Positions 39,012 through 52,216 are shown, numbered from the stretch's first letter. The stretch is 64,000 nucleotides of DNA from Candidatus Poseidoniaceae archaeon (GCA_965659685.1 CBFHXB010000007.1:29314-93313); one strand, 5' to 3'. Translations and numbers: made by a program. The notes: a model not told the origin generated them from the letters alone.

Positions 39012-40106
39012 ATGACCCGCTCGTCACGCGCCGTTTTGGCCGTTGGACTGCTTCTGCTGTCCCTTCTGCTTGCGGCGGCACCGGGCGCCCAAGCCCAACT
39101 CGGCATCGGGGTGCAAATCGATTGCGACGAGGACCCCGAGCTCAACGTTCGTCCTTCTGAGAACGACGACGTCAAGATCACCTGCACGGTGAAGAACACT
39201 GGACAATTGGAGTCCACCGTCTCCGTGGACTACGAATGGCAGGAGGAGGATCCTCGCGTTGACATGTCGCTTTCCGAGGATGAATTCACCCTCGCGGCCG
39301 GTGCGGAAGAGGACTTTGAGGCCACCTTCTCTGGCTCCCCGAGGATCGAAGCAGACCTTTCGCTTGATTTCGACATCACCGCATCCATCTCCTCCGTGAT
39401 GGTGCTGCCCGTGGACCAACTCAACCAATCCGCGGTGTATTCTGGCGAATTGACCGTGGCCACCTTTGGCATGGTGGACCTGACCCTGACCGATCGATCG
39501 ACGCGCAACCTCGAGGTCAGCGAAGAGGTCAGCATCGGCTTCACCATGGGCAACGACGGCAATGCCGAGGACAAGATCGAAGTGAACATCGCAAACCTTG
39601 CTGAATTGGAATCCGCAGGATTCAGTTTCCCTGAAGGCAGTTTCGTGGCCGAGACGGTCATGGTCGAGGGCACATCTGCGGAACGGACGCTCGTGTTGCG
39701 CACCCCTTCCGATGTCACCGATGAAGTGCGCGTTCAGGTCGTGTTCGAGGCCACCAGCACCAACGACGCAACGGCTGAGCCGATGCAGTCCTCGGTCACC
39801 GTCGTGGTCAAGGCAGCCGCTTCGAATGCCGCGTTGGGTGGTGGGCTGGAAGAACTCAGCCAAGACCAAATCCAACTCTATGCCGCCATCGGAGGCGGTG
39901 TGGTGGTCTTCTTCCTGATGATCCTCGTCATCGGGCGTCTCGTGCGCCGATCCGGTGGACCTGAACTCGAGGACGTGACCGACATCGACGAGCCGACGAT
40001 GCCCGGCGCCATGCCCGCAGCGGCCCCCGTTGCCATGGCTGCTCCGGCCGACGAATTTGATGGCATGTTCGACGAACTCGACGAGTTCGATTTTGACGAC
40101 CTCTGA
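39012..40106 (+). CDS. Secreted acidic surface protein with signal peptide and C-terminal TM anchor plus acidic tail
   Basis: Signal MTRSSRAVLAVGLLLLSLLLAAAPGAQA. C-terminal VVVFFLMILVIGRLVRRSGG then DEFDGMFDELDEFDFDDL. Same topology as the giant protein. Confidence 0.6.
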   Translation: MTRSSRAVLAVGLLLLSLLLAAAPGAQAQLGIGVQIDCDEDPELNVRPSENDDVKITCTVKNTGQLESTVSVDYEWQEEDPRVDMSLSEDEFTLAAGAEEDFEATFSGSPRIEADLSLDFDITASISSVMVLPVDQLNQSAVYSGELTVATFGMVDLTLTDRSTRNLEVSEEVSIGFTMGNDGNAEDKIEVNIANLAELESAGFSFPEGSFVAETVMVEGTSAERTLVLRTPSDVTDEVRVQVVFEATSTNDATAEPMQSSVTVVVKAAASNAALGGGLEELSQDQIQLYAAIGGGVVVFFLMILVIGRLVRRSGGPELEDVTDIDEPTMPGAMPAAAPVAMAAPADEFDGMFDELDEFDFDDL

Positions 40107-40207: not shown

Positions 40208-40999
40208 ATGCTGGACCTCAAAGGAAAGACGGCCTTCGTGTTTGGAGTGGCGAGCGAAGATTCCATCGCTTGGGCCATCTGCCAACAACTCGCTGCGGCA
40301 GGCTGCACGCTCTACCTTGGCTACCAGAAGCGGTTCATGAGCCGGATTTTCAAGCTCAAGGACCAGTTGCCCTCCATTGGAGGATTCTACCCCCTGGACG
40401 TGGCAGAAGACGCGACCACCAAGGAATTCTTTGATGCGTTTTCCGCGGAACATCCCGGCAAGAAAGCGGACATCCTTGTCCACGCCATTGGCTTTGCACC
40501 TCGCACCTGTTTCGATCGCCCCATCCTCTTCGTCGAAGACGCCGACATCAACACCGCGATGACCATTTCTGCCAACAGCCTCCAGCGCTGCTTGAAGCAC
40601 GCCCTGCCCTACCTCTCCGAGGGCTCCTCGACCATCACGCTGACCTATGCGGCCTCCACCCGGCACGTCCCCTCTTACGGCATCATGAGCATGGCCAAGG
40701 CCGCGCTGGAGTGCTGGACGCGGGAACTCGCCTGCCACCTTGGCCCCGAGGGTCATCGCGTAAACGCCATCTCCTCGGGCCCCATCCGGACCATCGCGGC
40801 GTCGGGCATCCCCGGTTTTGACAACATCCTGGATCACGTGGCGTCAAATGCGCCACTGCGGCGCAACGTCACGCAATCCGACGTGGCGGGAACGACCCTT
40901 TGGTTGGCCAGCCCGCTGTCCGCTGGAGTGACGGGGCAGGTCATCCACGTGGATGCCGGCTATTCGATCACCATGGTTCCAGGAACCATCATGGAGTGA
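40208..40999 (+). CDS. fabI: Enoyl-[acyl-carrier-protein] reductase (NADH), FabI-type SDR
   Basis: FabI hallmarks: GVASEDSIAWAI N-terminus, Y…K active-site region (SYGIMSMAKAALE), SGPIRT motif. The stop lies 9 nt before the megasynthase ATG. Confidence 0.8.
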   Translation: MLDLKGKTAFVFGVASEDSIAWAICQQLAAAGCTLYLGYQKRFMSRIFKLKDQLPSIGGFYPLDVAEDATTKEFFDAFSAEHPGKKADILVHAIGFAPRTCFDRPILFVEDADINTAMTISANSLQRCLKHALPYLSEGSSTITLTYAASTRHVPSYGIMSMAKAALECWTRELACHLGPEGHRVNAISSGPIRTIAASGIPGFDNILDHVASNAPLRRNVTQSDVAGTTLWLASPLSAGVTGQVIHVDAGYSITMVPGTIME

Positions 41000-41008
41000 G
41001 GTGGGAAC

Positions 41009-44000
41009 ATGACGATCACCACAGCAGACGGCAAAGAAGTCGGAGGAACCGACCAAGGTCCCTTCGAACCGATCGCAATCATCGGATGCTCGGCGTTGAT
41101 GCCCGATGCTGAAGACACGGCATCGTTCTGGCAGAACATCATCGATGCCCACGTGAGCATCCGCGACCTCCCTGAGGGCCGATGGCCCGGTCCAGTGGAG
41201 CAGTTTTGGGCCGAGGGCGCACCGGGACAAGTCGTAGAGAACAGGACCTACGCCAAGATTGGCGCCTTTGTCGAAGGCTTCGAATTCAACTGGCGCCGCT
41301 GGCGGCAACCTCCCGGGACGCTCCCACAAATCGATCCGTGTCAACTCTGGGCGGTCGAAGTTGCGGCTTCGGCGTTGGAGCACGCAGGCTACGGGGACGA
41401 CGGTCGGCCATTGGACCGCAGCCGCGTGGGTGTGGTCTTTGCGAACGCGCTCGGCGGTGAAAATCGAAACGAATCCAATCAACGGGTGTGGGCCGAGCGC
41501 AACCGCGCCTTGGCCATTGAGGCCGGTTTGCCTGAAGCGTCCAGCGATGCGTTTGTTGCGGCCATGGTGGAGGGTGCTCCCAAAATCACAGAAGACACGA
41601 TGCCGGGAGAACTGGCCAACGTCGTGTCTGGCCGGGTGGCCAATCTGCTTGATTTGCAGGGTCCAAACCACGCGATGGACGCGGCATGTGCCTCTTCCCT
41701 TGCGGCCTTGCTCGATGCATGTCGGCTGCTTCACGCACGCCAAGTGGACGCCATGATTTGCGGTGCATCCGACCGCACCATGGACCCGGCGACCTACGCC
41801 AAGTTCAGCGCCATTGGTGCGCTGTCGCCCAGCCATTCCACGCCGTTCGACGCCCGTGCAAACGGCTTCGTGATGGGCGAAGGTGCTGGCGCGATGGTCC
41901 TGAAACGCCTCAGCGACGCGGTGCGGGACGAGGACGAAATATTCGCCGTCATCCGCGGGATTGGCGGCTCATCGGACGGCCGTGGAAAAGGCATCACCGC
42001 TCCTTCGCAGCGTGGTCAGATTCAGGCCATCGCACGCGCCTACAATCAGGCGGGATATGCGGCTTCGTCCGTCGAGTTGGTCGAAGCTCACGGGACCTCG
42101 ACGAAGGTCGGTGACGCCACAGAATTATCCACGTTGGGCACCTTGTGGACGGGACTTGGCGCCGGGGACCACGTTGCCGTGGGTTCCATCAAGAGCCAAA
42201 TCGGCCACCTGAAGGCGGCCGCAGGCATGGCGGGCTTGCTCAAGGTCACCATGGCCTTGCACCATGCCACCATCCCTCCGAGTGCAGGATTTGAAACGCC
42301 CAATCCTACGGTGGATTGGTCGACGAATCCCTTCTTCGTTCCAACCGAACCAATGGCGTGGCCCAAGCCAGACGGCCACCCACGCCGTGCCGGTGTGAGT
42401 GCCTTCGGCTTCGGGGGAACCAACTTCCACGTTGCCCTCGAAGCCTTCGATCCTGAACTCCACACCAGCATGGGCGCCACCTGGGCGTCGCGTTGGGACG
42501 CATTCACCGGCACGCCCTCCGCTCCCTCGGCAGCCTCCATCCTCGATGCATCGGCGACCCCTTCCCTCGATCATGCCGCCCTGAAGGCGATCGAAGGCGG
42601 TCTCCTGCTGCTGTCGGGCGACAGCGTCGAAGCCGTGTCGGGCCGACTTGCAGGTTTGTCCGTCTCTGGGCCAACCTTCGACGACGATGCTCGCGGCCAC
42701 CGTCTTTCCGCCGTGTTTGCGGATTGGTCGGCCTCCTTTGACCCCAAGGCTTCGGTTCGACTCGCTGTCGTGGCCACGTCGTGGGCCGAATTTGACAAGC
42801 GGAAGGGGTTGGCTGCCTCGTCGCTCGCTGACCCATCGCGTTGGGGCTTCTTGGCCGCTCAAGGCATCATGATCACAGACCAGCCGCCCATGCCGGCTCA
42901 AGCCAAAGTGGCCCACATGTACCCCGGCCAAGGCAGCCAATACGTCGGCATGACGCAAGACCTGTGGCAACGCTTCTCTGCGGTGCAGGACGTGTGGCGA
43001 CTCGCAGACGAGACCATGGTGGAAGTCCTCGACGGCGAAACGCTGTCCTCCTTCGTGTTGCGCAGCAACCTCAGCAAAGAGGAGATGAAAGACGCTGAGG
43101 AGAAACTGAAGCGCACCGAGTACACTCAGCCGGCGATGTTGACGGCCGATTTGGCCATCGAACGTGCGCTCAACGACCACGGCCTCAAGCCGGACATGGT
43201 TGCTGGACATTCCCTCGGTGAATATGCGGCCCTGATGTCGGCGGGCATCATGGACATGGACAGCGCCCTCCGTGCTGCTGCTGCACGTGGCACTGAGATG
43301 GGCTCCGTCGAGATCGACGATCAAGGCCTGATGGCCTCGGTCAGTGCCCCACTTGCGGACGTGGAGCGCATTCTGGAGGGGACCGACGGGTACGTCATTG
43401 CGGCCAACAAGAACTCGCCCAAGATGACGGTCATCGCCGGAGAAACGGCACCCGTCAAGGCCGCAATGGCCGCTTTTGAAGCCGAAAGCATGCCTTGCAC
43501 CGTCCTGCAAACCTCCCACGCCTTCCACTCCAAGATCGTCGCTCCGGCCAACGCGCCGCTGCGCGCCTTCCTCGAGGGATTGGACCTGCAATGGCCCTCG
43601 ATTCCGATCACGGCCAACGTTGACGGGACCTTCTACGCGATGGAGGGCGAGGACGCAAAGACGGCCGTCTTGGAGAAGCTCGCCGGGCAAATGGCCTCCG
43701 CTGTGGAGTGGACCGCCCAGATCGAAACGATGGCCGCCGCAGGTGCGGGAGCCTTCGTCGAAGTCGGGCCGAAGCGGGCGTTGACCGTGTTCGCGTCGCA
43801 GATCCTCGAAGACCGACCGCATCTTGCCGTGATGACCAACCACCCGAAGCAAGGTGGCATCGCCAGTTTCCTCTCCGCACTTGGGATGCTCGCGCTCGCA
43901 GGGCGCGTCCCCTCGCTCCCAAACGGTTCCAGCGACGTGTTGACCGAGGCCTTCCGCGCGGGTCCGACCGAAGCCTGGGCGTCGGCTTCGGCTCAACCGG

Positions 44001-47000
44001 TCCGCTCTTCCGAGGCGCACGAAGACCTTCGTACCCGAGCCCGCCCGTTGCCTTCCAACGGTGGGACCCCAGCCGTTGCGCAGGCCGTGACGACAACGGC
44101 GACGAAACCCGTCGATCCTGCCGAAGCCCTCGCCGCGTACGTCGGCGACCGTCTCGCGGCGTTGTGCGGCTACCCAGCCCGGTTCTGTCGTGGTGCCGTG
44201 GACCTTCGTCTCGGCCTTGGCATGACCGATGCAAGCGTGGCCAGCGTGGTCCAGCGCCTGCGCAGTGAGGCTTCCCTCGATCCAGACGTCGACATCGCTG
44301 GCGCCCAAACTCCAGCAGAGCTCGTTCGCGCCGTCCGAGCCCCACCCGCCGGTTGGATTCCGGCTGCTCCGGCCACGCGCCGCCCAATCACCACCACGGC
44401 CGTCACGAACGCCGTTCACGACCCGATGGCCGACCGGCGTGCCAATCCCTACGTGATCACCGGCGTTTCCTTGGGCTTGCCCGGAGGCGAACGCGTCTTC
44501 GACGAAGACGTGTTTGAGCGTCTCGTCCGCGGTGAAACTTGCATCGAAGAGGTGTCGGATGCGTACAAGCAGGCGCTGCTCGATCGAAACATCGTCCGGT
44601 TGGTCAAGGGTCGAGACGGCTCTGTGGACATGTCTCCGGCGGAAACCTTCGGCGACATCCCACAATTGGCTGGCGTTGCCCACGCGTTTGACCTCGCCGA
44701 AGAATTCGGCGTGGACCCCAAGGCCGTCCTCGCATGGGACATCACGACTCAACTCGCCGTGGCTTCTGGCCTTCTCGCCCTACGGGACGCCGCCATTCCA
44801 CTGACTCCCGAAGAGCAAGTGGGCAAAGGCGGACTCCGTCTCATTCGTGGATGGCAAGTCCCTCAACATCAGCGTGAGCGAACCGGCGTGGTCTTCGCGT
44901 CCTGCTTCCCCGGCACCACCGCTTCCTTTGCGCATGCACGGAACAACGGTGCAGACGCTGACGACGTGTTCGATCGACGCTTCCTGTTCCAAGTTCTGAA
45001 CATGGGCCATGCGCAATTCGCACAGCACACCGGCATCCGCGGACCAAATTCAACCATCAACGTCGCTTGCGCGTCCGCCACGGCTGCGTTTAGCATCGCT
45101 GAAGATTGGCTGGCCAACGACCGTGCAGACCGCGTGGTCATCATTTCCTCGGACAACGTGACCAGCCCAGAATTGTGGTCGTGGATCGGCGCAGGCTTCG
45201 CGGCCTCAGGAGCCGCGTCGTCCAGCAACGTGGTCGAAGAAGCCGCGCTGCCCTTCGACCGCCGCCGCAACGGCTTGATCCTCGGCATGGGGGCCGCCGC
45301 CTTCGTGGTGGAGCGGAACGCCGAAGCCGCAGAACGGGGCGTTCAGCCCTACGCAGAATTGCTCGGGACACGCATGGCCAATTCTGCTTTCCACGGCACC
45401 AGGCTTGACGTGGACCACGTGGCCCAAACCGTGGATGGATTCGTTGGTCAGATGGAGCGGACTTGGGGTCTTGACCGACACAGCATGGCGCCGAACACGG
45501 TGTTCTTCTCCCACGAGACCTACACGCCCGCCCGGGGCGGCTCCGCTCAATCCGAGGTCAAGGCCCTCCGGACCACCTTCGGTGAAAGCACGGACAAGAT
45601 CCTCATTGCGAACACGAAGGGCTTCACCGGCCACCCGATGGGCGTCGGCATCGAGGATGCCAGCATGATCCACGGCCTCCACCATCGCCGCTTCCCGCCC
45701 ATCGCCAACCACAAGGAAGTGGACCCCGAGTTGGGCAACCTCAACCTCAGCAAGGGCGGCAACATCGACGGCATCGAATACGGCATCCGTTTCGGGGCCG
45801 GTTTCGGTTCACAAATCGCCCTCTCCTTGGTCCGTCGGTGGCCTGTCGAAGGGGAACGCGTGAACGGCAAAGCCGTCCTGGCATGGAACCGCCGCTTGGC
45901 GGGGACCAACGACGTGCTGCTTCGTGTCCTTGACAACAAGTTGGTCGCTTACGTCGATGGAGAGAGCAACCTCCACGGTGGCGTTCAAGGTGACGAGTGG
46001 GGTCCAAGTGCGCCCTTCGAGGGGCTTGTTGACGAGCCTGAGGTCGCGCCTGCGCCCGCTCCTGCACCCACACCAACACCTGCGGCTCCTGCACCGGCGC
46101 CCAAGGCGGCTCCAATGGCCGTGGCCAGCGATGACGAGGTCACGGCGGCGATGATCGAGGTCGTCGTTGAGCACACCGGTTATCCGGCAGAATTCATCGA
46201 GATGGATCAAGACCTCGAGGGTGAACTCGGCATTGACACCGTCAAGCAAGCCGAGATTATGGCAGCCCTTCGCGATCGGTTTTCGCTCCCTGTTGACGAA
46301 GACTTCGTGCTTTCCGACCATCCAACGCTCAACCATATGCTCGCGTACCTGACGCGCATGCAAGGTGGCGAGGCGCCTGCCGTGGCAGCACCACGTGACG
46401 TGCCAGCACCCGCTCCGGCACCTGCTCCTGCCCCCGCGAAGACCGAGCCAGCACCCGCTCCGGCACCTGCTCCTGCCCCAGCGGCGGACGCCGGTGACCT
46501 TGTGGACACGGTGGTGGCCGTTGTGGTCGAACACACCGGCTACCCCGCGGACTTCATCGAATTGGACCAAGACCTCGAAGGCGAACTTGGCATTGACACC
46601 GTCAAGCAAGCCGAGATCATGGCGGACATTCGTGCTCGCTTCTCCCTGCCGATCGACGAGGATTTCCTCCTCTCCGACCACCCGACGTTGAACCACATGG
46701 TGGCCTACATTCAGCGCATGACCGGGGGAGATGCACCCGCACCTCCAGCGGCCGCCACAACGCCTGAACCTGCTGCCGCTCCGGCGTCTGCGCCGGCTCA
46801 AGAGCCGGAGGCTGCACCCCCCGCTCCTGCTCCGTCAGGCGACGACGGCTCCATCGCCGCTCGTCTCGTGGAGGTCGTGGTCAAGCACACGGGTTACCCA
46901 GAGGATTTCATTGAACTCGACCAAGACCTCGAAGGTGAACTTGGTATTGACACCGTCAAACAGGCGGAAATCATGGCGGACGTTCGCGCCATTTTCGATC

Positions 47001-49798
47001 TCCCCGTGGACGAAGACTTCCTTCTGTCCGACCACCCAACCCTCAACCACTTCGTCGGCTACGTGGCGAAATTTTCCTCTGGAGGAACGGCAGCGAGCTC
47101 GTCTTCCAAGGAGGATTCAGCGTCGGTCCAAACCCCGGCCCCGGCCTCCACGGTGCAAAAGGTGGCCGAAGGGTGCCGACGTTGGCAGGTGGAGATTGAG
47201 CCGTGCCCTGGCGAGGATGCTCCGCTCAGCCTCTCCGGGCGTGTCCTCGTCACCGAGGACGACTGGGGAATTTCCGTTGCGGTGGCCGAGGAATTGACCT
47301 CCAAAGGCTTCGACGTGGTTCACATCGGATTGGAGCCTGGTGCCAAATCGCACCGGATCCAAGAGGAGGGCGATCGCCTCGTTCACCGGGTTGATCCGGC
47401 ATCTTCCGAACAGATGGATGCCTTCGTCGAAGAACTCGGTGAAGGGCCCATTGCAGGCATGATTCATCTGGCGCCCTTGCGCTTGGCCAGCATGGCATGG
47501 GCGGAAGAATCCGGCCCAAGCCAACAGGTCGTGCTCTCAGGACAAGCATGGTTTGGCTTGCTGAAGGCCCTTGACCAGCGTCTGGGTGCTTTGGATGCCG
47601 GAATCGTTGCTTCGGTCAGCGCCATGGACGGCCGTCACGGAAACCGGGGTGACCGGTTCAACGCCTTGCAAGCCGCGGCCGCTGGCGTGACCAAATCCTA
47701 CGCGCATGAGCGCCCTTCCCTGCGCTGCCGTGCATACGACCTTCACCCTGATCTGCTGATGGACGCCTCGTCCACGGCGGCCCGTCTGGTGGACGACCTG
47801 ATGAACCTCGGTGGCGAGGTGGAAATCGGCCTCGATCGAGCGGGCGAGCGGTGGACCCTTGTCTGCTTTGCAGAGGACCTCGTCGAGGACCACAAGCCCT
47901 TGCTTGAGACCGACGTTTGGCTCGTGTCCGGTGGCGGTTCTGGCGTCACTGCAGCGGCCATCATCGGCGTCGCTGAAGCCTCAAAGGGCGCAGGAGCCTC
48001 CTTCCACCTGCTTGGTCGGACCCCGCTGATGGACCTCACCGAAGGCTGGCTTGAGCACGACGATGCGACCTTGGAAGCCGAGAAGATGGCCCTCCGAGAG
48101 CGCATGATCGAAGCTTCTGCTTCGGGGAAGGTCACGATGGTGGAATGGAACCGCGCGTGGGACCGAATGATGCGCTCCCGGGATGTGCAGCAGACCCTTG
48201 CCACCATCCAAGCGACGGGTAACCTCGCGCAATACCACGCTGTGGACGTCATGAACGCGAAATCCCTGACCAAACTTGGGGCAAACCTTGGTCACGCCAT
48301 CACCGGCGTGGTCCACGGAGCAGGACTTGAGGAAAGCAAACTGGTCGGCGACAAAACCCACGAGGCCTTCGATCGCGTGGTTCGCGTGAAGGTCGACGGA
48401 TGGGCGGCCTTGATGGGCGCTGTGGAAGCATCGGGTGTGCGTCACCCCGCCTTTGCGGCCTGCTTCACTTCGGTGGCTGGACGGTTCGGAAACGGCGGCC
48501 AAACGGATTACGCCGCGGCCAACTCTGTGCTCGACGCTGAGATGGCCCGGTTGACCGCAAGCGGTGCTTGCCGTGCCGTCGCCATCGGATGGACCGGATG
48601 GCGCGACGTCGGCATGGCGACGCGTGGTTCGATCGAAGCGGTGTTCGAAGCCGCGGGCATCGAAACCCTTCCCGTGGACGTCGGTGTGGAGTTGTTCGTG
48701 GGTGAAGCCCTAGCGGGCGGCAAGCGCCGTGTGCTCGGTTGCGGCAGCCTTGGCGCCATGGACACCTTCGACGCCTTCCGAGAAGCGCCTCTGAAATTGC
48801 CTCCAAGCATGGCAGGACTCATCGCCGACCCCCAGCGTTTCCCCTTCATCGACAAGGTGGTGGCCTTTGACCACGACGAGCGCATTGAAACGCAAACGAC
48901 GCTGTCAACGGAGTTGCACCCCTTCTTGGTCGACCACGCCATCGACGGTGTGCCGTATCATCCCGGTGTGATGGCGCTAGAGATGTTTGCACAGAACGCT
49001 CTGCTGCTCAAGCCTGAGACGGCTTTGGCGGGCTTCAAAGACGTCACCTTCGGCTTGCCGGTCAAGATCATGCGTGGGTCGATGACGGTTCGCGTTGAAG
49101 CGTCGGTGGAGTCCTCAAGCGACGGCTTGCACGAGGTGCAGTGCCGCTTGGTCTCAGACCTGATGTCGTCGACCGGCGAGGTGTTCGGGGAACGTGAGCA
49201 CCACCGTGCAGTGGTCCGTTTGGTGGACCAAGCCGAGGACTTGAGCGCCTTCTTTGAGGGTGAACTCGCATCGATGCCGGACACCGGTTTGGCTCCGGCT
49301 CCAGGCGATTTGCTTCACCACCCTTCGTTCATTTACCTCCGCTACTTCCACGGACCGCGCTTCCAAAGCCACGGTGGTGTGCTTCGTGGCGTTCAGCAGG
49401 GTGAATTCTTGGGTGTGGACGGGCTTGCCTTGATGCGGCATCAATTGCCCGCGAGCGACCAATTCGCCATCGAGTCTGAAGGCGAAACCGTGCTCCTGGA
49501 AGCCCTACCAATGCTGATCGAGGCCGGATTCCAGAACGCCGGTTTGGTCGCGATGGAATCCGAAGGGCTGAGCAGCCTGCCGGTCGGCATCGAATGGTCG
49601 ACCGTCCTGCGGGTGCCCGACGAAGGCGAATCCCTACGCATGCGCTCCCTGTGCACCGCCAAGGAAGACGGTGGAATCACCGTTCACGACGTGGTCATTT
49701 TCGGTGAAGAGGATGACCCAGTGCTGGCGCTGCGAGGATTGCGCCTCAAGGGCATGGCTCCCGTCCCCGAAGATCTGGCGGTCACCATCCAACGGTGA
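41009..49798 (+). CDS. Type I polyketide/PUFA-synthase-like megasynthase (2929 aa): KS - AT(malonyl) - ACP-like - KS - 3x tandem ACP - KR - DH
   Basis: Directly read motifs. KS1: GPNHAMDAACASSL (Cys227), EAHGTSTKVGD, GHLKAAAG. AT: GHSLGE (Ser735), HAFH. KS2: GPNSTINVACASA, KGFTGHPMGVG. Three ~75-aa repeats: EHTGYPxxFIExDQDLEGELGIDTVKQAEIM separated by Pro/Ala-rich linkers. KR: VSGGGSGVT Rossmann and YAAAN. PKS-type DH: LVDHAIDGVPYHPG. RBS GGAGTGAGGTGGG lies upstream of ATG 41009. Confidence 0.9.
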   Translation: MTITTADGKEVGGTDQGPFEPIAIIGCSALMPDAEDTASFWQNIIDAHVSIRDLPEGRWPGPVEQFWAEGAPGQVVENRTYAKIGAFVEGFEFNWRRWRQPPGTLPQIDPCQLWAVEVAASALEHAGYGDDGRPLDRSRVGVVFANALGGENRNESNQRVWAERNRALAIEAGLPEASSDAFVAAMVEGAPKITEDTMPGELANVVSGRVANLLDLQGPNHAMDAACASSLAALLDACRLLHARQVDAMICGASDRTMDPATYAKFSAIGALSPSHSTPFDARANGFVMGEGAGAMVLKRLSDAVRDEDEIFAVIRGIGGSSDGRGKGITAPSQRGQIQAIARAYNQAGYAASSVELVEAHGTSTKVGDATELSTLGTLWTGLGAGDHVAVGSIKSQIGHLKAAAGMAGLLKVTMALHHATIPPSAGFETPNPTVDWSTNPFFVPTEPMAWPKPDGHPRRAGVSAFGFGGTNFHVALEAFDPELHTSMGATWASRWDAFTGTPSAPSAASILDASATPSLDHAALKAIEGGLLLLSGDSVEAVSGRLAGLSVSGPTFDDDARGHRLSAVFADWSASFDPKASVRLAVVATSWAEFDKRKGLAASSLADPSRWGFLAAQGIMITDQPPMPAQAKVAHMYPGQGSQYVGMTQDLWQRFSAVQDVWRLADETMVEVLDGETLSSFVLRSNLSKEEMKDAEEKLKRTEYTQPAMLTADLAIERALNDHGLKPDMVAGHSLGEYAALMSAGIMDMDSALRAAAARGTEMGSVEIDDQGLMASVSAPLADVERILEGTDGYVIAANKNSPKMTVIAGETAPVKAAMAAFEAESMPCTVLQTSHAFHSKIVAPANAPLRAFLEGLDLQWPSIPITANVDGTFYAMEGEDAKTAVLEKLAGQMASAVEWTAQIETMAAAGAGAFVEVGPKRALTVFASQILEDRPHLAVMTNHPKQGGIASFLSALGMLALAGRVPSLPNGSSDVLTEAFRAGPTEAWASASAQPVRSSEAHEDLRTRARPLPSNGGTPAVAQAVTTTATKPVDPAEALAAYVGDRLAALCGYPARFCRGAVDLRLGLGMTDASVASVVQRLRSEASLDPDVDIAGAQTPAELVRAVRAPPAGWIPAAPATRRPITTTAVTNAVHDPMADRRANPYVITGVSLGLPGGERVFDEDVFERLVRGETCIEEVSDAYKQALLDRNIVRLVKGRDGSVDMSPAETFGDIPQLAGVAHAFDLAEEFGVDPKAVLAWDITTQLAVASGLLALRDAAIPLTPEEQVGKGGLRLIRGWQVPQHQRERTGVVFASCFPGTTASFAHARNNGADADDVFDRRFLFQVLNMGHAQFAQHTGIRGPNSTINVACASATAAFSIAEDWLANDRADRVVIISSDNVTSPELWSWIGAGFAASGAASSSNVVEEAALPFDRRRNGLILGMGAAAFVVERNAEAAERGVQPYAELLGTRMANSAFHGTRLDVDHVAQTVDGFVGQMERTWGLDRHSMAPNTVFFSHETYTPARGGSAQSEVKALRTTFGESTDKILIANTKGFTGHPMGVGIEDASMIHGLHHRRFPPIANHKEVDPELGNLNLSKGGNIDGIEYGIRFGAGFGSQIALSLVRRWPVEGERVNGKAVLAWNRRLAGTNDVLLRVLDNKLVAYVDGESNLHGGVQGDEWGPSAPFEGLVDEPEVAPAPAPAPTPTPAAPAPAPKAAPMAVASDDEVTAAMIEVVVEHTGYPAEFIEMDQDLEGELGIDTVKQAEIMAALRDRFSLPVDEDFVLSDHPTLNHMLAYLTRMQGGEAPAVAAPRDVPAPAPAPAPAPAKTEPAPAPAPAPAPAADAGDLVDTVVAVVVEHTGYPADFIELDQDLEGELGIDTVKQAEIMADIRARFSLPIDEDFLLSDHPTLNHMVAYIQRMTGGDAPAPPAAATTPEPAAAPASAPAQEPEAAPPAPAPSGDDGSIAARLVEVVVKHTGYPEDFIELDQDLEGELGIDTVKQAEIMADVRAIFDLPVDEDFLLSDHPTLNHFVGYVAKFSSGGTAASSSSKEDSASVQTPAPASTVQKVAEGCRRWQVEIEPCPGEDAPLSLSGRVLVTEDDWGISVAVAEELTSKGFDVVHIGLEPGAKSHRIQEEGDRLVHRVDPASSEQMDAFVEELGEGPIAGMIHLAPLRLASMAWAEESGPSQQVVLSGQAWFGLLKALDQRLGALDAGIVASVSAMDGRHGNRGDRFNALQAAAAGVTKSYAHERPSLRCRAYDLHPDLLMDASSTAARLVDDLMNLGGEVEIGLDRAGERWTLVCFAEDLVEDHKPLLETDVWLVSGGGSGVTAAAIIGVAEASKGAGASFHLLGRTPLMDLTEGWLEHDDATLEAEKMALRERMIEASASGKVTMVEWNRAWDRMMRSRDVQQTLATIQATGNLAQYHAVDVMNAKSLTKLGANLGHAITGVVHGAGLEESKLVGDKTHEAFDRVVRVKVDGWAALMGAVEASGVRHPAFAACFTSVAGRFGNGGQTDYAAANSVLDAEMARLTASGACRAVAIGWTGWRDVGMATRGSIEAVFEAAGIETLPVDVGVELFVGEALAGGKRRVLGCGSLGAMDTFDAFREAPLKLPPSMAGLIADPQRFPFIDKVVAFDHDERIETQTTLSTELHPFLVDHAIDGVPYHPGVMALEMFAQNALLLKPETALAGFKDVTFGLPVKIMRGSMTVRVEASVESSSDGLHEVQCRLVSDLMSSTGEVFGEREHHRAVVRLVDQAEDLSAFFEGELASMPDTGLAPAPGDLLHHPSFIYLRYFHGPRFQSHGGVLRGVQQGEFLGVDGLALMRHQLPASDQFAIESEGETVLLEALPMLIEAGFQNAGLVAMESEGLSSLPVGIEWSTVLRVPDEGESLRMRSLCTAKEDGGITVHDVVIFGEEDDPVLALRGLRLKGMAPVPEDLAVTIQR
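41066..42442 (+). other. Ketosynthase domain 1 (KS1) of megasynthase; active-site Cys codon TGT at 41687-41689
   Basis: Motifs listed above; ends with AFGFGGTNFHVALE. Confidence 0.85.
42914..43813 (+). other. Acyltransferase domain (malonyl-CoA specific); Ser codon TCC at 43211-43213
   Basis: GQGSQ…GHSLGE…HAFH; approximate borders. Confidence 0.8.
44111..44338 (+). other. ACP-like helical domain between AT and KS2 (LGLGMTDASVASVVQRL)
   Basis: Resembles the PKS ACP LGxDSLxAVEL core with a DAS motif; assignment tentative. Confidence 0.35.
44450..45838 (+). other. Ketosynthase domain 2 (KS2), retains Cys and both His motifs
   Basis: YVITGVSLGLPGG start, INVACASATAAF, FFSHETYTP, KGFTGHPMGVG, GAGFGSQIALSL end. 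Confidence 0.75.
46130..47068 (+). repeat. Three tandem ~340-bp direct repeats encoding ACP domains (46130-46354, 46502-46717, 46847-47068), each with Thr (ACC) at the canonical Ser position of the LGID(S) motif
   Basis: Nucleotide repeats ~85-90% identical. Thr codons read at 46238-46240, 46598-46600 and 46952-46954. Confidence 0.85.
47906..48613 (+). other. Ketoreductase domain (SDR); catalytic Tyr codon TAC at 48509-48511
   Basis: VSGGGSGVTAAAIIG…YAAAN. Confidence 0.75.
48821..49795 (+). other. PKS-type dehydratase (double hotdog) domain
   Basis: HxxxGxxxxP motif LVDHAIDGVPYHPG in the first hotdog half. Confidence 0.65.
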
Positions 49799-50580
49799 TG
49801 CCGATGGAACGTGTCGTGCCGGAGTGGTCCGGCCTCGGGGTGCCGGTTCACCTCGTCCACCTTGCTCCGCTTCCGGCAACCCTTCCCGGACAGGACGATG
49901 GGTTGCCAGCCTTGGTGGATCCCGAGGAGTGGTCCACGTTCAAGACCGATAAACGACGTGTGGAGCATCTGGGGGGGCGTCTTCTTTTGGCGGCCTCGAT
50001 GGACGCTTGGTGGCGCATGCACCGCTTCCTTGGACGCGTGGATGAACTGGACGTGGTCCGGGATGCACATCGCGCTCCATACTTGCGTTGGCGCTCAGGC
50101 GTGTGGAGGCAGGCGCCGCTTCCTGGTCTCTCCATCGGTCACAGTGAAGGGCGTGCTGTGGTCGGTTTGGTGGCACCCGGTTGGAGCATCGGCGTCGACG
50201 CTGAACCCGCCGACCGCCGCATCGCCGAGGGCGCATGGGACATGTTTGCCTCTGCGGAGGAACGGGCCTCCTTTGACGGGAACCCGAAGGCTGCATTGCG
50301 GGCTTGGGTGACCAAGGAGGCCGTTCAGAAGGCCTTGGGCTTGGGCATGCACCTGAATCCTCGGCACATCGTTCCGGACGGCAACCGTTTCGTTCACGAC
50401 GGGGCCACGGTGGACCTCAGTTGGTTGGAGTCAGACGGGATGCTTGTTTGCGTGGCCTTGGCTCCGGGTCGTGCACCGCCGTCAACGCCAGAGGACGCCG
50501 TCCTGGAAGCGACGAAGGCGGCGATGGACGAGGACCCAGCGTGGGGCGTGGGGTGCAAAACCACACGGAACTTGTGTTGA
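49798..50580 (+). CDS. 4'-phosphopantetheinyl transferase (Sfp/EntD type)
   Basis: GVDAE…WVTKEAVQKALG motifs. ATG 49798-49800 overlaps the megasynthase TGA (TGATG), indicating translational coupling. Confidence 0.75.
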   Translation: MPMERVVPEWSGLGVPVHLVHLAPLPATLPGQDDGLPALVDPEEWSTFKTDKRRVEHLGGRLLLAASMDAWWRMHRFLGRVDELDVVRDAHRAPYLRWRSGVWRQAPLPGLSIGHSEGRAVVGLVAPGWSIGVDAEPADRRIAEGAWDMFASAEERASFDGNPKAALRAWVTKEAVQKALGLGMHLNPRHIVPDGNRFVHDGATVDLSWLESDGMLVCVALAPGRAPPSTPEDAVLEATKAAMDEDPAWGVGCKTTRNLC

Positions 50581-52002
50581 TCAACCGACGTTCCGGATTT
50601 CCGGCGTTTGGTCGGCAAAGAGGAACTCCAGCATGGCCGCCCACATGACGAACTCGATGCTTTCCTCCAGCTTGTCTTGGCCACCAACCACGTCCATCAT
50701 GTTCTCGAGCGTGTCGGAGGGGGAGTGGTAAGCGTCGTAGTCGTCGTCGTATGCACCGAGGTGGAAGATGGTCTGAGCGCCCAAGTCACGGAAGGTGACG
50801 TGGTCGCTTCGTCCGAAGGTGTCCTCATGAACGTCCATGACCAAATCCGAGTGGTTGTCCCAATGTTGGTCGCAACCTGCGCCGTAACTGCCGTCAATCC
50901 TCAGGTCCATGGGCGCTTTCAGGACGTTGCGGTGCACGTGGTCCAGGATGCTGGTGATGGCCACGTCCTGCTCGTCGGGATCGATGTCAGGGCCGGACCA
51001 TGCATGGTAGGGGTAGGGCTCGCCGGTGGGCTTGATGGCGGGCCATGAAATGCCCATCATGTCCATGTTGATGTAGAAGCGGAGTTCCTTGTCTTGAGGT
51101 AGGCAGTAGCCACAATCGTTGGTGGCAAATGCATTCGAACCGCGCAACCCTTCCTCCTCGGACGACCAGAGCGCGAGGAAGGTGTCGCATTCCACCTCAA
51201 GCTCTGCGAGGACCTTGGCATAGAGCATCATCGTCACCGTGCCAGCAGTGTTGTCGTAGGCACCTTCGTGGGTGCCACCGCCAGGAGGTCCACCGGGGGG
51301 CGCGATGTCCATGTGGCCGCCCATGCCTTGGACGCAGGAGTCGTCACGGCCATCCTTCCACGCAATGACGTTCAACGATTCTGGCTGGCTTGGATTGAGA
51401 TGGTCGGTCACCCGAAGCATGTAGGTGCGGTAGCCGAGGCTCTCGAAGTGGCCTTGGAAGTAGGCGGCTCCACGCTCGTAGGCTGGATTTCCGGCGCCCA
51501 TCCAGCGGTCGTTGTAACCGCCGCATTCCGCAGACGGACGTCCGTCAACGACGGGGTCGCAGGTGATGTAGTCCATCTTCTCGAACCACTCTTGGCCGTT
51601 GACGATCGGCGTGCCGTTCGCCACGGGCAACTCAAAGGTCGTCTTCCTGCCGTTTTGGTCGTAAATCGTCAGGACCACTTCCTCCGTGTAGGGTGTGGTC
51701 AGGAGGCGGAAGGCCAGGCGATCGCCGTCCACGGGCACTGAACTGTCCAAATCCATCGAACCGTTCACGAACAAAAACACGTCATGGGCCGGTGCGGAGA
51801 GCCGCAATCCTTCGCCGATGAGCAGCAGGTCGTGCCATTCGCCAAGGAGGACGGTGACGTCGGTGGCCGGCAAGCCGTCGATGGTCAAGGTGGCATCGGC
51901 GTCGATGACTTCCTCCTCCGGCGTACCGCCAATGCAGCCAGACAGGGGCCCAAGGAGCATGAGCGCGATGAGCAAGAGTGCGGAAGACATCTTCGCTGCC
52001 AT
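50581..52002 (-). CDS. Secreted M28-family Zn aminopeptidase lipoprotein
   Basis: Signal plus lipobox (LLGPLSGC). M28 metal ligands (H…D…EE…D…H pattern; …WSSEEEGLRGS…). Confidence 0.7.
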   Translation of the reverse strand: MAAKMSSALLLIALMLLGPLSGCIGGTPEEEVIDADATLTIDGLPATDVTVLLGEWHDLLLIGEGLRLSAPAHDVFLFVNGSMDLDSSVPVDGDRLAFRLLTTPYTEEVVLTIYDQNGRKTTFELPVANGTPIVNGQEWFEKMDYITCDPVVDGRPSAECGGYNDRWMGAGNPAYERGAAYFQGHFESLGYRTYMLRVTDHLNPSQPESLNVIAWKDGRDDSCVQGMGGHMDIAPPGGPPGGGTHEGAYDNTAGTVTMMLYAKVLAELEVECDTFLALWSSEEEGLRGSNAFATNDCGYCLPQDKELRFYINMDMMGISWPAIKPTGEPYPYHAWSGPDIDPDEQDVAITSILDHVHRNVLKAPMDLRIDGSYGAGCDQHWDNHSDLVMDVHEDTFGRSDHVTFRDLGAQTIFHLGAYDDDYDAYHSPSDTLENMMDVVGGQDKLEESIEFVMWAAMLEFLFADQTPEIRNVG

Positions 52003-52179: not shown

Positions 52180-52193
52180 CTCAGCCTTGCAGT

Positions 52194-52211: not shown

Positions 52212-52216
52212 GTATT

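What the first reader, a model, noticed from the sequence alone, without database searches (positions are those of the whole stretch)
40208..50580. Bacterial-type polyketide/fatty-acyl assembly line (fabI - 2929-aa type I PKS/PUFA-synthase-like megasynthase - Sfp-type PPTase) embedded in an archaeal chromosome
The surrounding genes are unambiguously archaeal (Orc1/Cdc6, PCNA, TFS, HTH_10 regulator, archaeal PPAT/DUF359). Archaea build lipids from isoprenoids and generally lack ACP-based FAS/PKS machinery. Here a FabI enoyl-ACP reductase, a giant multidomain KS-AT-ACP-KS-ACP3-KR-DH synthase and a phosphopantetheinyl transferase form one tightly coupled operon (9-nt gap, then TGATG overlap). This is a complete, self-contained system for carrier-protein-dependent chain elongation with full reductive processing. 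GC content and GC3 match the host, so it is not a fresh contaminant-like insertion. A likely product is a fatty-acyl, polyene or PUFA-like chain. Neighbouring secreted hydrolases and an MsbA-like ABC exporter (57916-59754) might relate to product export or lipid handling.
Basis: partly seen in the sequence, partly recalled or inferred. Interest (0 to 1): 0.95.

Follow-up and report, generated by a model that had tools for sequence, protein, structure and literature searches.

The report
Fatty-acid synthase operon in marine archaeon
A three-gene operon in an uncultured Marine Group II ocean archaeon encodes a complete bacterial-style, carrier-protein-based fatty-acid/polyketide factory that is inherited and conserved in this lineage, and it gives a directly testable candidate for how these archaea could make non-archaeal lipids.

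Summary
fabI (40208-40999), a 2929-aa megasynthase (41009-49798) and an Sfp-type PPTase (49798-50580) form one tightly coupled operon inside a genuine archaeal chromosome. It is not a chimera: independent contigs of up to 1.97 Mb are colinear across both junctions, composition is uniform, and dN/dS is 0.02-0.10.

The host is a Marine Group II archaeon (Poseidoniales; every relative I could classify is MGIIa). The operon is present in at least 45 species-level genomes.

The synthase belongs to the bacterial "Type R" pfa-like secondary-lipid family (Shulse & Allen 2011), whose product is unknown. It is widespread in Acidobacteriota, Acidimicrobiia and Myxococcota, and also occurs in Heimdall/Asgard archaea.

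Most likely it is an iterative type-I FAS-like enzyme that makes reduced fatty-acyl chains, with FabI acting as a trans enoyl reductase. Relatives carry a fused NMO reductase or an adjacent acyl-CoA-dehydrogenase plus acetyl-CoA carboxylase instead.

- The first "ACP" is degenerate.
- The so-called CLF is a catalytically intact FabF-like KS.
- The ABC exporter and peptidases are not conserved partners.

Unexpected finding: all carrier domains carry Thr, not Ser, at the phosphopantetheine site, and this holds across the family.

The parts
40208..40999 (+). fabI: FabI-type (SDR) enoyl-ACP reductase, 263 aa. Proposed trans-acting ER of the synthase.
   Evidence: Pfam adh_short_C2 7.7e-70. Best NCBIfam hits are all FabI equivalogs, though below their cut-offs. 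PDB FabI 1ulu 4.7e-58 with the Tyr-x6-Lys catalytic motif aligned. It lies immediately upstream of the synthase in every Poseidoniales locus with enough flank, at 75-98% identity. dN/dS about 0.016.
41009..49798 (+). 2929-aa megasynthase: KS1-AT-psiACP-KS2-ACP-ACP-ACP-KR-DH ('Type R' PfaA-like).
   Evidence: Domain hits. More than 120 full-length orthologue clusters at 65-93% identity. All catalytic residues are invariant in 122 sequences. dN/dS about 0.05.
41066..42448 (+). KS1 (residues 20-480), PKS/PfaA-type ketosynthase. Cys227, His361, His400.
   Evidence: ketoacyl-synt plus Ketoacyl-synt_C. TIGR02813 PfaA is the best NCBIfam hit. The triad is invariant.
42899..43888 (+). AT (residues 631-960), malonyl-type acyltransferase. 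GHSLG with Ser735, Arg760, HAFH at 837-840.
   Evidence: Acyl_transf_1 3.5e-34. FabD TIGR00128 1.6e-57. Motifs read and invariant.
44096..44353 (+). psiACP (residues 1030-1115): degenerate ACP-like domain without an attachment residue (Asp1074).
   Evidence: No Pfam hit. hhalign against the true ACPs gives 87% probability, E 3.9e-6, with the attachment Thr aligned to Asp. The site is variable (D/E/P/A) among 122 orthologues. Some relatives carry genuine ACPs at this position.
44441..45844 (+). KS2 (residues 1145-1612): FabF-like ketosynthase with intact Cys1354, His1502, His1542 (and Lys1537). This is the domain called 'CLF' in the Type R description.
   Evidence: ketoacyl-synt 1.2e-17. PDB FabF 2e-24 with active-site residues aligned. 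The residues are invariant across a 14-sequence family alignment. Cys1354 and His1502 were also counted as invariant in 122 MGII sequences.
46124..47086 (+). Three tandem carrier domains (ACP1 46124-46378, ACP2 46484-46732, ACP3 46838-47086) separated by Ala/Pro linkers. The attachment position is Thr1744, Thr1864 and Thr1982 (codons at 46238, 46598 and 46952).
   Evidence: PP-binding three times. In all five alignments to solved ACPs the Thr aligns with the modified Ser. The AF2 model has pLDDT 83 and helix II starts exactly at the Thr. Foldseek TM is about 0.8 to ACPs. The motif LGIDTVK occurs in 374 of 374 MGII copies.
47186..48688 (+). KR (residues 2060-2560): N-terminal structural half plus catalytic half. 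Contains GGGSGV at 2308-2313 and Tyr2501 in YAAAN.
   Evidence: Pfam KR 1.3e-23 and adh_short. Tyr2501 and Asn2505 are invariant.
48806..49795 (+). DH (residues 2600-2929): PKS-type double-hotdog dehydratase. His2643 in HxxxGxxxxP, YFHGPRF, Glu2838-xxx-Gln2842.
   Evidence: PKS_DH_N 6.4e-9 and PS-DH 1.2e-3. His, Pro, Glu and Gln are invariant.
49798..50580 (+). Sfp-type 4'-phosphopantetheinyl transferase, 260 aa. Its start overlaps the synthase stop (TGATG).
   Evidence: Pfam ACPS. Homologues carry PF01648 plus PF17837, and there is an exact 260-aa match. AF2 pLDDT 90.6. Foldseek matches AASDHPPT, Sfp, PptT and PcpS at probability 1.0. The conserved motifs are GxDxE and WxxKEAxxK. It lies downstream of the synthase in all Poseidoniales loci with flank. 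dN/dS about 0.10.

Best explanation
The operon encodes a functional, iterative, type-I FAS-like synthase of the bacterial 'Type R' Pfa-like family. It was acquired once from bacteria by an ancestor of Marine Group II (at least MGIIa) archaea and has been inherited vertically since.

Proposed cycle:
1. The Sfp-type PPTase loads 4'-phosphopantetheine from CoA onto the three tandem carrier domains. The attachment residue here is Thr1744/1864/1982 instead of the usual Ser. The position is shown; the modification is inferred.
2. The malonyl-type AT charges the carriers from malonyl-CoA (inferred from motifs).
3. Two catalytically intact ketosynthases extend the chain by decarboxylative condensation. 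KS1 is PfaA-type and KS2 is FabF-like. How they divide the work, for example by chain length or priming versus elongation, is unknown.
4. KR reduces the beta-keto group and the PKS-type DH dehydrates.
5. The co-transcribed FabI reduces the enoyl-ACP in trans.
6. The cycle repeats to give a largely saturated fatty-acyl chain.

No thioesterase domain is present. Release is therefore inferred to occur by direct acyl transfer (plsC homologues are reported in most Poseidoniales) or by a separate hydrolase.

The product is most simply a fatty acid for ester-linked or mixed membrane lipids. Its identity is not established for any member of the family.
For: Real and resident:
- One colinear 28.9-kb alignment at 80% nucleotide identity to an independent 1.97-Mb contig spans both junctions.
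- Composition is uniform.
- The order fabI-synthase-PPTase is the same in all Poseidoniales loci with flank, from at least 45 species genomes, and in a deeper relative on a 3.0-Mb contig.

Functional:
- Every catalytic residue is invariant in 122 orthologues, while linkers diverge.
- dN/dS is 0.016, 0.047 and 0.10 for the three genes.

Family:
- The architecture and downstream PPTase match Type R of Shulse & Allen.
- KS2-core relatives occur in at least 580 species genomes, mainly Acidobacteriota, Acidimicrobiia and Myxococcota.
- In an NJ tree the Poseidoniales sequences form one clade nested among bacterial sequences.

FAS-like, fully reducing:
- The same core is always paired with an enoyl-reducing function, supplied in three non-homologous ways. 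These are a fused NMO/PfaD-type domain (Asgard and Bradymonadaceae proteins), an acyl-CoA-dehydrogenase-like gene immediately upstream with or without ETF (29 of 36 bacterial loci; those without it have little or no upstream sequence), and FabI in Poseidoniales.
- Bacterial clusters carry a multidomain acetyl-CoA carboxylase immediately downstream.
- AT motifs are malonyl-type. KR and DH motifs are intact.

Carrier and PPTase:
- ACP fold confirmed and Sfp fold confirmed.
- The attachment position is only ever Thr or Ser.
- Fused PPTase domains are present in about 31 of 72 long relatives.

Context from the literature:
- MGII lack G1P dehydrogenase, encode G3P dehydrogenase and plsC (PMC6461757 and its supplement).
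- No GDGT intact polar lipids were found in MGII-dominated water (PMC6962369).
Against: - No member of the Type R family has a known product.
- There is no thioesterase or release domain and no acyltransferase in the operon.
- No carboxyltransferase or BCCP is nearby. Only a lone biotin carboxylase lies about 30 kb away.
- Thr at the carrier site is untested. In my recollection E. coli ACP S36T is not modified by AcpS, so activity depends on an unproven property of the dedicated PPTase.
- FabI scores below every NCBIfam FabI equivalog cut-off.
- The DH has Glu where PKS dehydratases usually have Asp.
- The need for two active KS domains is unexplained.
- All classifiable carriers are MGIIa and no MGIIb locus was seen. 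This argues against an order-wide essential membrane role.
- The same genomes are rich in beta-oxidation genes.
- The tree is neighbour-joining without support values.
Confidence: 0.6

Rival explanations
1. The enzyme is functional but makes a specialised 'secondary lipid', not bulk membrane fatty acid. Examples would be a very-long-chain, hydroxylated or partly unsaturated acyl chain, a hydrocarbon or alkyl-phenol precursor, or a surface or storage lipid. The product would be made in small amounts for a niche function such as photoprotection, buoyancy or particle attachment.
For: - The family was defined as a secondary-lipid (pfa-like) synthase, and characterised sister types make PUFA, heterocyst glycolipids and alkylresorcinol precursors.
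- Tandem ACPs are typical of those systems.
- The host bacteria (Acidobacteriota, Myxococcota and others) presumably also have ordinary FAS II, so there the system is an add-on.
- The apparent restriction to MGIIa fits an accessory trait.
- There are two KS domains and no release domain.
Against: - Obligatory pairing with an enoyl reductase and, in bacteria, with a dedicated acetyl-CoA carboxylase looks like bulk de novo fatty-acid supply.
- No tailoring genes are conserved next to the archaeal operon: no type III PKS, desaturase, ole genes or glycosyltransferase.
- From established knowledge, archaea normally have no other ACP-dependent FAS, so any fatty acid they make de novo by ACP chemistry would have to come from this enzyme.
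Confidence: 0.28
2. It is a canonical polyunsaturated fatty-acid (EPA/DHA-type) synthase subunit, PfaA.
For: The best NCBIfam model is TIGR02813 omega_3_PfaA at 868 bits. The protein has a KS-AT-tandem-ACP-KR-DH layout and an Sfp-type PPTase. The host lives in a cold marine habitat.
Against: - The score is below the model's 1010-bit cut-off.
- No pfaB, pfaC (KS-CLF with two FabA-type DH) or pfaD was found among the ORFs of the 64-kb window that were scanned, or in syntenic loci.
- There is an extra FabF-like KS inside the protein.
- The ER is FabI, not PfaD.
- Without a FabA-like dehydratase/isomerase there is no known route to cis double bonds.
Confidence: 0.03
3. It is an assembly or binning artefact: bacterial DNA joined to an archaeal contig.
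For: The domains are typical of bacteria, and the nearest non-archaeal relatives are marine Acidimicrobiia.
Against: - The same junctions and gene order occur in dozens of independent assemblies. These include long-read contigs of 1.97, 1.53 and 3.0 Mb and a single-cell genome.
- A single colinear blastn alignment crosses both borders.
- There is no tetranucleotide, GC or GC3 break.
- No tRNA or repeat lies at the operon borders.
Confidence: 0.01
4. It is a decaying relic of an old transfer and is no longer active, for example because the carrier serines were lost.
For: Ser has been replaced by Thr at all three carrier sites, and one ACP-like domain is clearly degenerate.
Against: - An 8.8-kb reading frame is intact in more than 120 sequence clusters.
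- All catalytic residues are invariant.
- dN/dS is about 0.05.
- Thr is the family-wide state in bacteria too. It alternates only with Ser and never with a non-hydroxyl residue.
- Thr and Ser carriers coexist within single Heimdallarchaeal proteins.
Confidence: 0.01

Closest known systems
'Type R' pfa-like secondary-lipid synthase cluster (Shulse & Allen 2011, PMC3098273), found in Koribacter, Solibacter, Elusimicrobium and Roseiflexus
   Same: - A single PfaA homologue with KS-MAT-second KS-like domain-tandem ACPs-KR, followed by a PPTase gene.
- Association with acetyl-CoA carboxylase genes in Acidobacteria. I found this in Acidobacteriota and Acidimicrobiia loci as well.
- KS2-core relatives include Korobacteraceae and Bryobacteraceae.
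   Different: - The host is an archaeon. The paper lists no archaea.
- The second KS-like domain was called CLF, but it has an intact Cys-His-His triad.
- A C-terminal DH and an obligatory ER partner were not part of the original description.
- In MGII the ER is an adjacent FabI rather than an acyl-CoA-dehydrogenase-like or NMO-type reductase, no ACC is adjacent, and a degenerate ACP sits between AT and KS2.
- The product is unknown in all members.
PfaA subunit of bacterial PUFA synthases (TIGR02813) with PfaE PPTase
   Same: KS1, AT, tandem ACPs, KR and a PKS-type DH occur in the same order. PfaA is the best-scoring curated model. There is a dedicated Sfp-type PPTase.
   Different: - The score is below the family cut-off.
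- An extra FabF-like KS is inserted.
- There are no PfaB, PfaC or PfaD partners.
- The carriers have Thr, whereas PfaA ACPs have LGIDSIK (the latter from my own knowledge, not tested here).
Type II FAS components FabF and FabI
   Same: KS2 aligns best with FabF structures, at about 1e-24. The ER is a bona fide FabI-type SDR with Tyr-x6-Lys.
   Different: KS2 is embedded in a megasynthase. FabI would have to act on carrier domains of a type I protein. No discrete ACP, FabD, FabG, FabZ or FabH was seen among the ORFs scanned in the window.
Animal, fungal and CMN-bacterial type I fatty-acid synthases
   Same: Iterative synthesis with all elongation and reduction activities in one system. The predicted product is a saturated acyl chain.
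   Different: The domain order and ancestry differ: this enzyme belongs to the Pfa/PKS lineage. The ER acts in trans, there is no TE or MPT release domain, there are multiple tandem carriers and there are two KS domains.
Single-polypeptide relatives in Heimdall/Asgard archaea and Bradymonadaceae (for example MEA2070463.1, MBA2665313.1, UJG44031.1)
   Same: They share the KS1-AT-KS2-ACPn-KR-DH core and are homologous throughout.
   Different: They carry an N-terminal NMO-type ER and a C-terminal PPTase fused in cis. The Asgard sequences form a separate clade from MGII, indicating independent acquisition. Some Heimdall proteins have Ser or mixed Ser/Thr carriers.

Membership tests
Type R pfa-like secondary-lipid synthase (Shulse & Allen 2011) | One pfaA homologue with the architecture KS-MAT-(CLF/second KS)-ACP(3-6)-KR | tested here: met
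   KS1-AT-psiACP-KS2-ACPx3-KR-DH. Orthologues have 3 or 4 ACPs.
Type R pfa-like secondary-lipid synthase (Shulse & Allen 2011) | A PPTase gene downstream of the pfaA homologue | tested here: met
   The PPTase start overlaps the synthase stop. This arrangement is conserved in all Poseidoniales loci with flank.
Type R pfa-like secondary-lipid synthase (Shulse & Allen 2011) | Common ancestry with the acidobacterial and Chloroflexi members | tested here: inconclusive
   The KS2 core is 58-63% identical to Acidobacteriota (including Korobacteraceae and Bryobacteraceae), Ardenticatenaceae and others, and lies in one NJ radiation with them. The type strains themselves (Ellin345, Ellin6076, Roseiflexus) were not among the 80 loci returned, and the tree has no support values.
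PUFA synthase PfaA (TIGR02813) | Score at or above the curated family cut-off | tested here: not met
   868.4 bits against a cut-off of 1010.1.
PUFA synthase PfaA (TIGR02813) | Partner genes pfaB, pfaC (KS-CLF-2xFabA-DH) and pfaD (NMO ER) in the cluster | tested here: not met
   None was found among the ORFs of the 64-kb window that were scanned with Pfam, or in syntenic loci.
Chain-length factor (CLF) | KS-like fold lacking the active-site cysteine | tested here: not met
   Cys1354, His1502 and His1542 are present and invariant. The domain is therefore a KS, not a CLF.
FabI enoyl-ACP reductase | SDR fold of the FabI branch with the catalytic Tyr-x6-Lys | tested here: met
   adh_short_C2 7.7e-70. 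Thermus FabI 1ulu at 4.7e-58 with the motif aligned.
FabI enoyl-ACP reductase | NCBIfam equivalog cut-off | tested here: not met
   The best hit is 226.8 bits against a cut-off of 391. All top 12 hits are FabI models, but all fall below their cut-offs.
Sfp-type (group II) PPTase | A two-lobed pseudo-dimer of about 230-260 aa with a Mg-binding Asp/Glu and the W/FxxKE(S/A)xxK motif | tested here: met
   PF01648 plus PF17837 in homologues. D134, E136, W170, K173 and E174 are invariant. AF2 pLDDT is 90.6, and Foldseek matches Sfp, AASDHPPT and PptT at probability 1.0.
Acyl carrier protein domain | Four-helix bundle | tested here: met
   The AF2 model has four helices. TM is about 0.8 and rmsd 1.3-2.5 A to solved ACPs.
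Acyl carrier protein domain | Conserved Ser at the N-terminus of helix II as the phosphopantetheine site | tested here: not met
   Thr occupies that exact position in all three domains, in 374 of 374 MGII copies and in most of the family. Whether Thr is modified cannot be tested with these tools.
Integrated type I FAS (animal, fungal, CMN) | ER and a release domain (TE or MPT) in cis | tested here: not met
   The 2929-aa protein has no ER or TE domain.

The most novel reading that the evidence does not exclude
The carrier domains of this whole megasynthase family, in bacteria, MGII and Asgard archaea, are phosphopantetheinylated on threonine rather than serine by their dedicated or fused Sfp-type PPTases. 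This would be a natural O-(4'-phosphopantetheinyl)-threonine, which I could not find described.

In MGIIa archaea this Thr-carrier synthase would be the de novo fatty-acid synthase feeding G3P-based ester or mixed lipids. One of the ocean's most abundant archaeal groups would then build part of its membrane with bacterial chemistry. The independent presence of the same enzyme family in Heimdallarchaeia would make it a candidate player in the archaeal-to-bacterial membrane transition discussed for eukaryogenesis.
Probability: 0.3. Interest if true: 0.9.

Novelty: new variant of a known kind. Interest (0 to 1): 0.68.

Why it matters
Marine Group II archaea are among the most abundant archaea in the surface ocean. 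They are uncultured, and their membrane lipids are unknown.

Their genomes lack G1P dehydrogenase but encode G3P dehydrogenase and plsC. This led to the unproven 'mixed membrane' hypothesis, in which archaeal and bacterial lipid chemistry coexist in one membrane (PMC6461757, PMC7852524, PMC6962369).

This operon is a concrete, compact (10.4 kb, three genes), self-contained and strongly conserved candidate for the missing acyl-chain source. That turns the hypothesis into an experiment: express the three genes and read out the lipids and the carrier modification.

The comparative picture also gives the orphan 'Type R' family a coherent reading. The family spans hundreds of bacterial species, and the same core is always paired with one of three different enoyl reductases and, in bacteria, with a dedicated acetyl-CoA carboxylase. 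It therefore reads as a stand-alone fatty-acid factory.

The family is also present in closed Heimdallarchaeal genomes.

The family-wide Thr at the prosthetic-group site, if modified, would extend a textbook rule that carrier proteins use Ser. It could also offer an orthogonal carrier/PPTase pair for engineering.

Tried and rejected
- An exact-sequence look-up of the megasynthase found nothing. Relatives had to be used instead.
- A sequence search of the PPTase against PDB gave only noise. The fold had to be established by AF2 plus Foldseek.
- Ten literature searches found no open paper that describes the MGII megasynthase, characterises a Type R product, or reports a Thr-type carrier protein.
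- Villanueva 2017, Dibrova 2014, Martin-Cuadrado 2015 and the Beld 2014 PPTase review are not held. What Villanueva et al. actually listed as 'fatty-acid genes' could therefore not be checked.
- tblastn with the window FabI, the window PPTase and an NMO domain found none of these in the 36 bacterial loci. Their ER turned out to be acyl-CoA-dehydrogenase-like.
- I looked for PPTase residues that co-vary with Ser- versus Thr-type carriers. No discriminating column was found, with only two pure Ser-type proteins available.
- I tried to name the organism of the deep-branching relative L082. All eight neighbouring proteins are singletons without names.
- I tried to decide whether MGIIb carries the operon. 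All TOBG and UBA MAGs I could classify are MGIIa.
- Considered and rejected: PUFA synthase, chimera, pseudogene, and the ABC exporter or peptidases as functional partners.
Full report
**1. The observation**

- fabI begins at ATG 40208, preceded by GGAGG, and ends at TGA 40997-40999.
- Nine bases later (GGTGGGAAC) the 2929-codon ORF starts at 41009.
- Its TGA at 49796-49798 shares one base with the ATG of the next gene at 49798, giving TGATG.

Pfam results:
- FabI: adh_short_C2, 7.7e-70.
- Large protein: two ketoacyl-synt matches, Ketoacyl-synt_C, KAsynt_C_assoc, Acyl_transf_1, three PP-binding matches, KR, PKS_DH_N/PS-DH.
- Last gene: ACPS.

The surrounding genes are archaeal: Orc1/Cdc6, HTH_10, PPAT fused to DUF359, and PCNA. 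GC, codon-position GC and tetranucleotide composition show no break at 40.1 or 50.6 kb. Operon-flank r is 0.94-0.98, the same as flank-flank.

**2. Whose genome it is, and whether the join is real**

More than 120 protein clusters are full-length homologues at 65-93% identity. Those with names come from Candidatus Poseidoniaceae, Poseidoniales or Poseidonia MAGs, that is Marine Group II.

An 88%-identical orthologue sits on a 1.97-Mb contig with the same neighbours on both sides. The window aligns to that locus in one colinear 28.9-kb blastn segment (window 31020-59795, 80% identity) that crosses both borders.

A scan of one genome per species found the KS2 core in 45 Poseidoniales genomes. 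In every one with enough flank the order is fabI-synthase-PPTase. All MAGs I could look up in Tully's tables (IN1222, RS440, SAT205, SP303, SP339, SP3054, UBA550) are MGIIa. I saw no MGIIb locus, but the scan was truncated, so this is a lead and not a result.

A deeper, unnamed relative on a 3.0-Mb contig has the same synteny.

Nei-Gojobori dN/dS against a congener is 0.016 for fabI, 0.047 for the synthase and 0.10 for the PPTase. dS is saturated, so these are rough values. Chimera and pseudogene readings are excluded.

**3. Anatomy of the synthase**

Reading the sequence and counting over 122 orthologues gives the following.
- KS1: Cys227, His361, His400.
- AT: GHSLG (Ser735), Arg760 and the malonyl-type HAFH motif.
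- KR: GGGSGV and Tyr2501 in YAAAN.
- DH: His2643 in HxxxGxxxxP, YFHGPRF and Glu2838-xxx-Gln.

All of these residues are invariant. Catalytic domains are 69-78% identical to the orthologues and linkers only 47-60%.

The second KS (residues 1145-1612) aligns best with FabF structures, at about 1e-24. Its Cys1354, His1502, His1542 and Lys1537 are invariant in a 14-sequence alignment spanning the family, and Cys1354 and His1502 were also counted as invariant in the 122 MGII orthologues. It is therefore a real ketosynthase, not a chain-length factor.

The segment between AT and KS2 has no Pfam hit. It aligns with the true ACPs by hhalign (87%, E 3.9e-6), with Asp1074 opposite the attachment residue, and that position varies among orthologues. 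Some relatives have genuine ACPs there. It is a vestigial ACP.

**4. The accessory enzymes**

FabI matches Thermus FabI at 4.7e-58 with the Tyr-x6-Lys motif aligned. It stays below the NCBIfam equivalog cut-offs.

The PPTase has only MGII-type sequence homologues. They are 251-260 aa long and carry PF01648 plus PF17837, and one is an exact 260-aa match that supports the long gene model. Its AF2 model (pLDDT 90.6) matches human AASDHPPT, Sfp, PptT and PcpS at probability 1.0. It has an extra, highly conserved C-terminal tail.

**5. What family this is**

The best curated model is PfaA, but below its cut-off.

A search of 1.84 billion cluster representatives with the psiACP-KS2 segment found 530 clusters at E below 1e-30. 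Most are megasynthases of 2000-4000 aa. Named members come from Polyangiaceae, Bradymonadaceae, an 'Asgard group archaeon' and Heimdallarchaeota, including the closed genomes of Ca. Heimdallarchaeum endolithica and aukensis.

The species-genome scan found at least 580 genomes. After Poseidoniales, the closest are marine Acidimicrobiia/Ilumatobacteraceae (60-63% in the KS2 core), then Acidobacteriota, Myxococcales, Calditrichia, Rhodothermales, Gemmatimonadales and others.

This is the 'Type R' pfa-like cluster of Shulse & Allen 2011. They described it as one pfaA homologue, KS-MAT-CLF-ACP(3-6)-KR, plus a downstream PPTase, present in Koribacter, Solibacter, Elusimicrobium and Roseiflexus and sometimes associated with an acetyl-CoA carboxylase gene. 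The product is unknown and no archaea are listed. I found no later characterisation.

In a neighbour-joining tree of the KS2 core the Poseidoniales sequences form one clade, with the deep relative as sister, nested among bacterial sequences. The Asgard sequences form a separate clade. This fits one old transfer into Poseidoniia and an independent one into Asgard archaea. The tree has no support values.

**6. Why I read it as a fatty-acid-type, fully reducing synthase**

The conserved core KS1-AT-KS2-ACPn-KR-DH never comes alone.
- In about 22 of 72 long representatives an NMO/PfaD-type enoyl reductase is fused at the N-terminus, and in about 31 a PPTase is fused at the C-terminus. In an Asgard protein and a Bradymonadaceae protein both are fused.
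- In 29 of the 36 bacterial loci an acyl-CoA-dehydrogenase-like gene lies immediately upstream. The seven without it have little or no sequence upstream of the synthase. Electron-transfer flavoprotein genes often accompany it.
- In most bacterial loci with downstream flank a multidomain acetyl-CoA carboxylase (BC-BCCP-ACC_central-CT) follows.
- In Poseidoniales the position upstream of the synthase is occupied by FabI.

Three unrelated reductases in the same place argue that enoyl reduction is integral to the pathway. The dedicated carboxylase argues for de novo synthesis from malonyl-CoA.

The window operon is thus a 'split' version of what some relatives encode in one polypeptide. This also ties the three genes together functionally.

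Steps that are shown: domain identity, intact active sites, linkage, conservation. Steps that are inferred: substrate, number of cycles, trans action of FabI, release, and the fate of the product.

**7. The unexpected point**

All three carrier domains read ELGIDTVKQAE. In every alignment to solved ACPs the Thr lies on the phosphopantetheinylated Ser. In the AF2 model helix II begins exactly at that Thr, and the model superposes on ACPs with TM about 0.8.

Counts of the attachment residue:

| Set | Thr | Ser | Other |
|---|---|---|---|
| MGII copies | 374 | 0 | 0 |
| Family representatives | 334 | 15 | 0 |
| Bacterial loci | 102 | 0 | 0 |

The named proteins with Ser-type copies are Heimdallarchaeal, although three Ser-type proteins (P0123, P0255 and P0264) come from unnamed organisms. 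Some Heimdallarchaeal proteins carry Thr and Ser carriers side by side with a single fused PPTase.

The position therefore needs a hydroxyl, Thr is strongly preferred, and the family's PPTases probably accept both residues. I found no report of a Thr-type carrier. To my knowledge, unverified here, AcpS does not modify E. coli ACP S36T. Whether Thr is modified is the key untested step.

**8. Relation to what is known about MGII**

The following is already published:
[quoted passage not shown] - Horizontally transferred genes in group II/III Euryarchaeota are enriched in fatty-acid biosynthesis.
- A PKS with PUFA-like KS domains was noted in a Heimdallarchaeota MAG.

None of the texts I could read names this megasynthase operon, its completeness or its family.

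[quoted passage not shown] MGIIa, and some Asgard archaea, are exceptions by transfer.

**9.

The M28 peptidase, the 1885-aa S8 subtilase and the ABC exporter downstream are neighbours only in the closest relatives.

The conserved block lies upstream: a 1945-aa acidic protein, a 272-aa ORF, a TBP-like protein, TatD and a 446-aa ORF. It is conserved in 36-37 of the Poseidoniales loci. Nothing links either set to lipid handling.

**10. Verdict**

The finding is real and well read, but it is a conserved lineage trait of a known (orphan) synthase family, not a singular anomaly.

Its value lies in four things:
- It is a concrete, testable acyl-chain source for MGII.
- The comparative evidence points to a self-contained fatty-acid factory.
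- The same family is present in Heimdallarchaeia.
- The carriers use Thr.

I rate it a new variant of a known kind, with interest 0.68.

Noticed in passing
window 46238-46240, 46598-46600, 46952-46954 (Thr1744/1864/1982); also P0121-P0284 and loci L001-L082: All carrier domains have Thr (LGIDTVK) where ACPs have the phosphopantetheinyl Ser. Across the family the position is Thr in hundreds of copies and Ser in 15, never anything else. Heimdallarchaeal proteins mix Thr- and Ser-type carriers in one polypeptide.
   Followed up: yes
L045-L080 (for example L064 2749-20815, L047 4531-20697): Bacterial members of the family sit in a conserved cassette. An acyl-CoA-dehydrogenase-like gene (57-93% identical to the L064 copy across phyla) lies immediately upstream, often with ETF alpha/beta and an Fe-S/CCG oxidoreductase. 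A eukaryote-like multidomain acetyl-CoA carboxylase (BC-BCCP-ACC_central-CT) lies immediately downstream.
   Followed up: partly
P0127, P0134, P0136, P0246/P0333/P0335/P0338 (Asgard/Heimdallarchaeota): The same megasynthase family occurs in Heimdallarchaeia, including the closed Ca. Heimdallarchaeum endolithica and aukensis genomes. The ER and PPTase are often fused in cis. These sequences form a clade separate from MGII.
   Followed up: partly
window 30900-40106 (+): A five-gene block upstream of fabI is conserved in order in 36-37 Poseidoniales loci. It comprises a 1945-aa acidic protein with no Pfam hit, a 272-aa ORF, a weak TBP-like protein, TatD and a 446-aa acidic ORF with no Pfam hit. 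Its function is unknown, and no link to the synthase beyond synteny is known.
   Followed up: partly
window 50401-50580 (PPTase C-terminus, residues about 202-260): The PPTase has a C-terminal extension not typical of Sfp, with a near-invariant tail TPEDxLLEATRxAMxxDPDWGVGCKTTR. Trp249, Gly252, Cys253, Thr255 and Arg257 are invariant. Its role is unknown.
   Followed up: no
window 8850-10334 (-): A stand-alone biotin carboxylase (AccC-like) lies about 30 kb from the operon with no adjacent BCCP or carboxyltransferase. It could belong to an acetyl- or propionyl-CoA carboxylase that supplies malonyl-CoA.
   Followed up: no
window 29618-30259 (-): A 4HBT hotdog-fold thioesterase lies about 10 kb upstream of the operon. 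It is a speculative candidate for acyl release, and its synteny was not examined.
   Followed up: no
window 784-5722 and 21735-22634: Fatty-acid and aldehyde catabolism genes lie in the same window: aldehyde dehydrogenase (784-2694), two enoyl-CoA hydratases (2696-3487 and 21735-22634) and 3-hydroxyacyl-CoA dehydrogenase (4556-5722). The organism therefore has both CoA-based degradation and ACP-based synthesis genes.
   Followed up: no
window 16067-17089 (-): A fusion of a cytidylyltransferase-like (PPAT) domain with DUF359, the last steps of archaeal CoA biosynthesis. CoA is the phosphopantetheine donor for the PPTase.
   Followed up: no
window 50581-57874 (-) and 52108-52180 (+): An M28 peptidase and a 1885-aa S8 subtilase with extremely low Lys (0.4%) and high Asp+Glu (17.8%) are probably secreted proteases typical of MGII. 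A tRNA-Gly(TCC) lies between them.
   Followed up: no
L001 18679-19607: In the 1.97-Mb long-read contig the PPTase is split between two frames. The N-terminal 60 residues are conserved in another frame, which most likely reflects an indel error of the assembly. This is why its gene call is only 197 aa.
   Followed up: yes
window 20055-20402 (+): A small ORF with a strong DUF3860 match (5.5e-34). It was not examined further.
   Followed up: no
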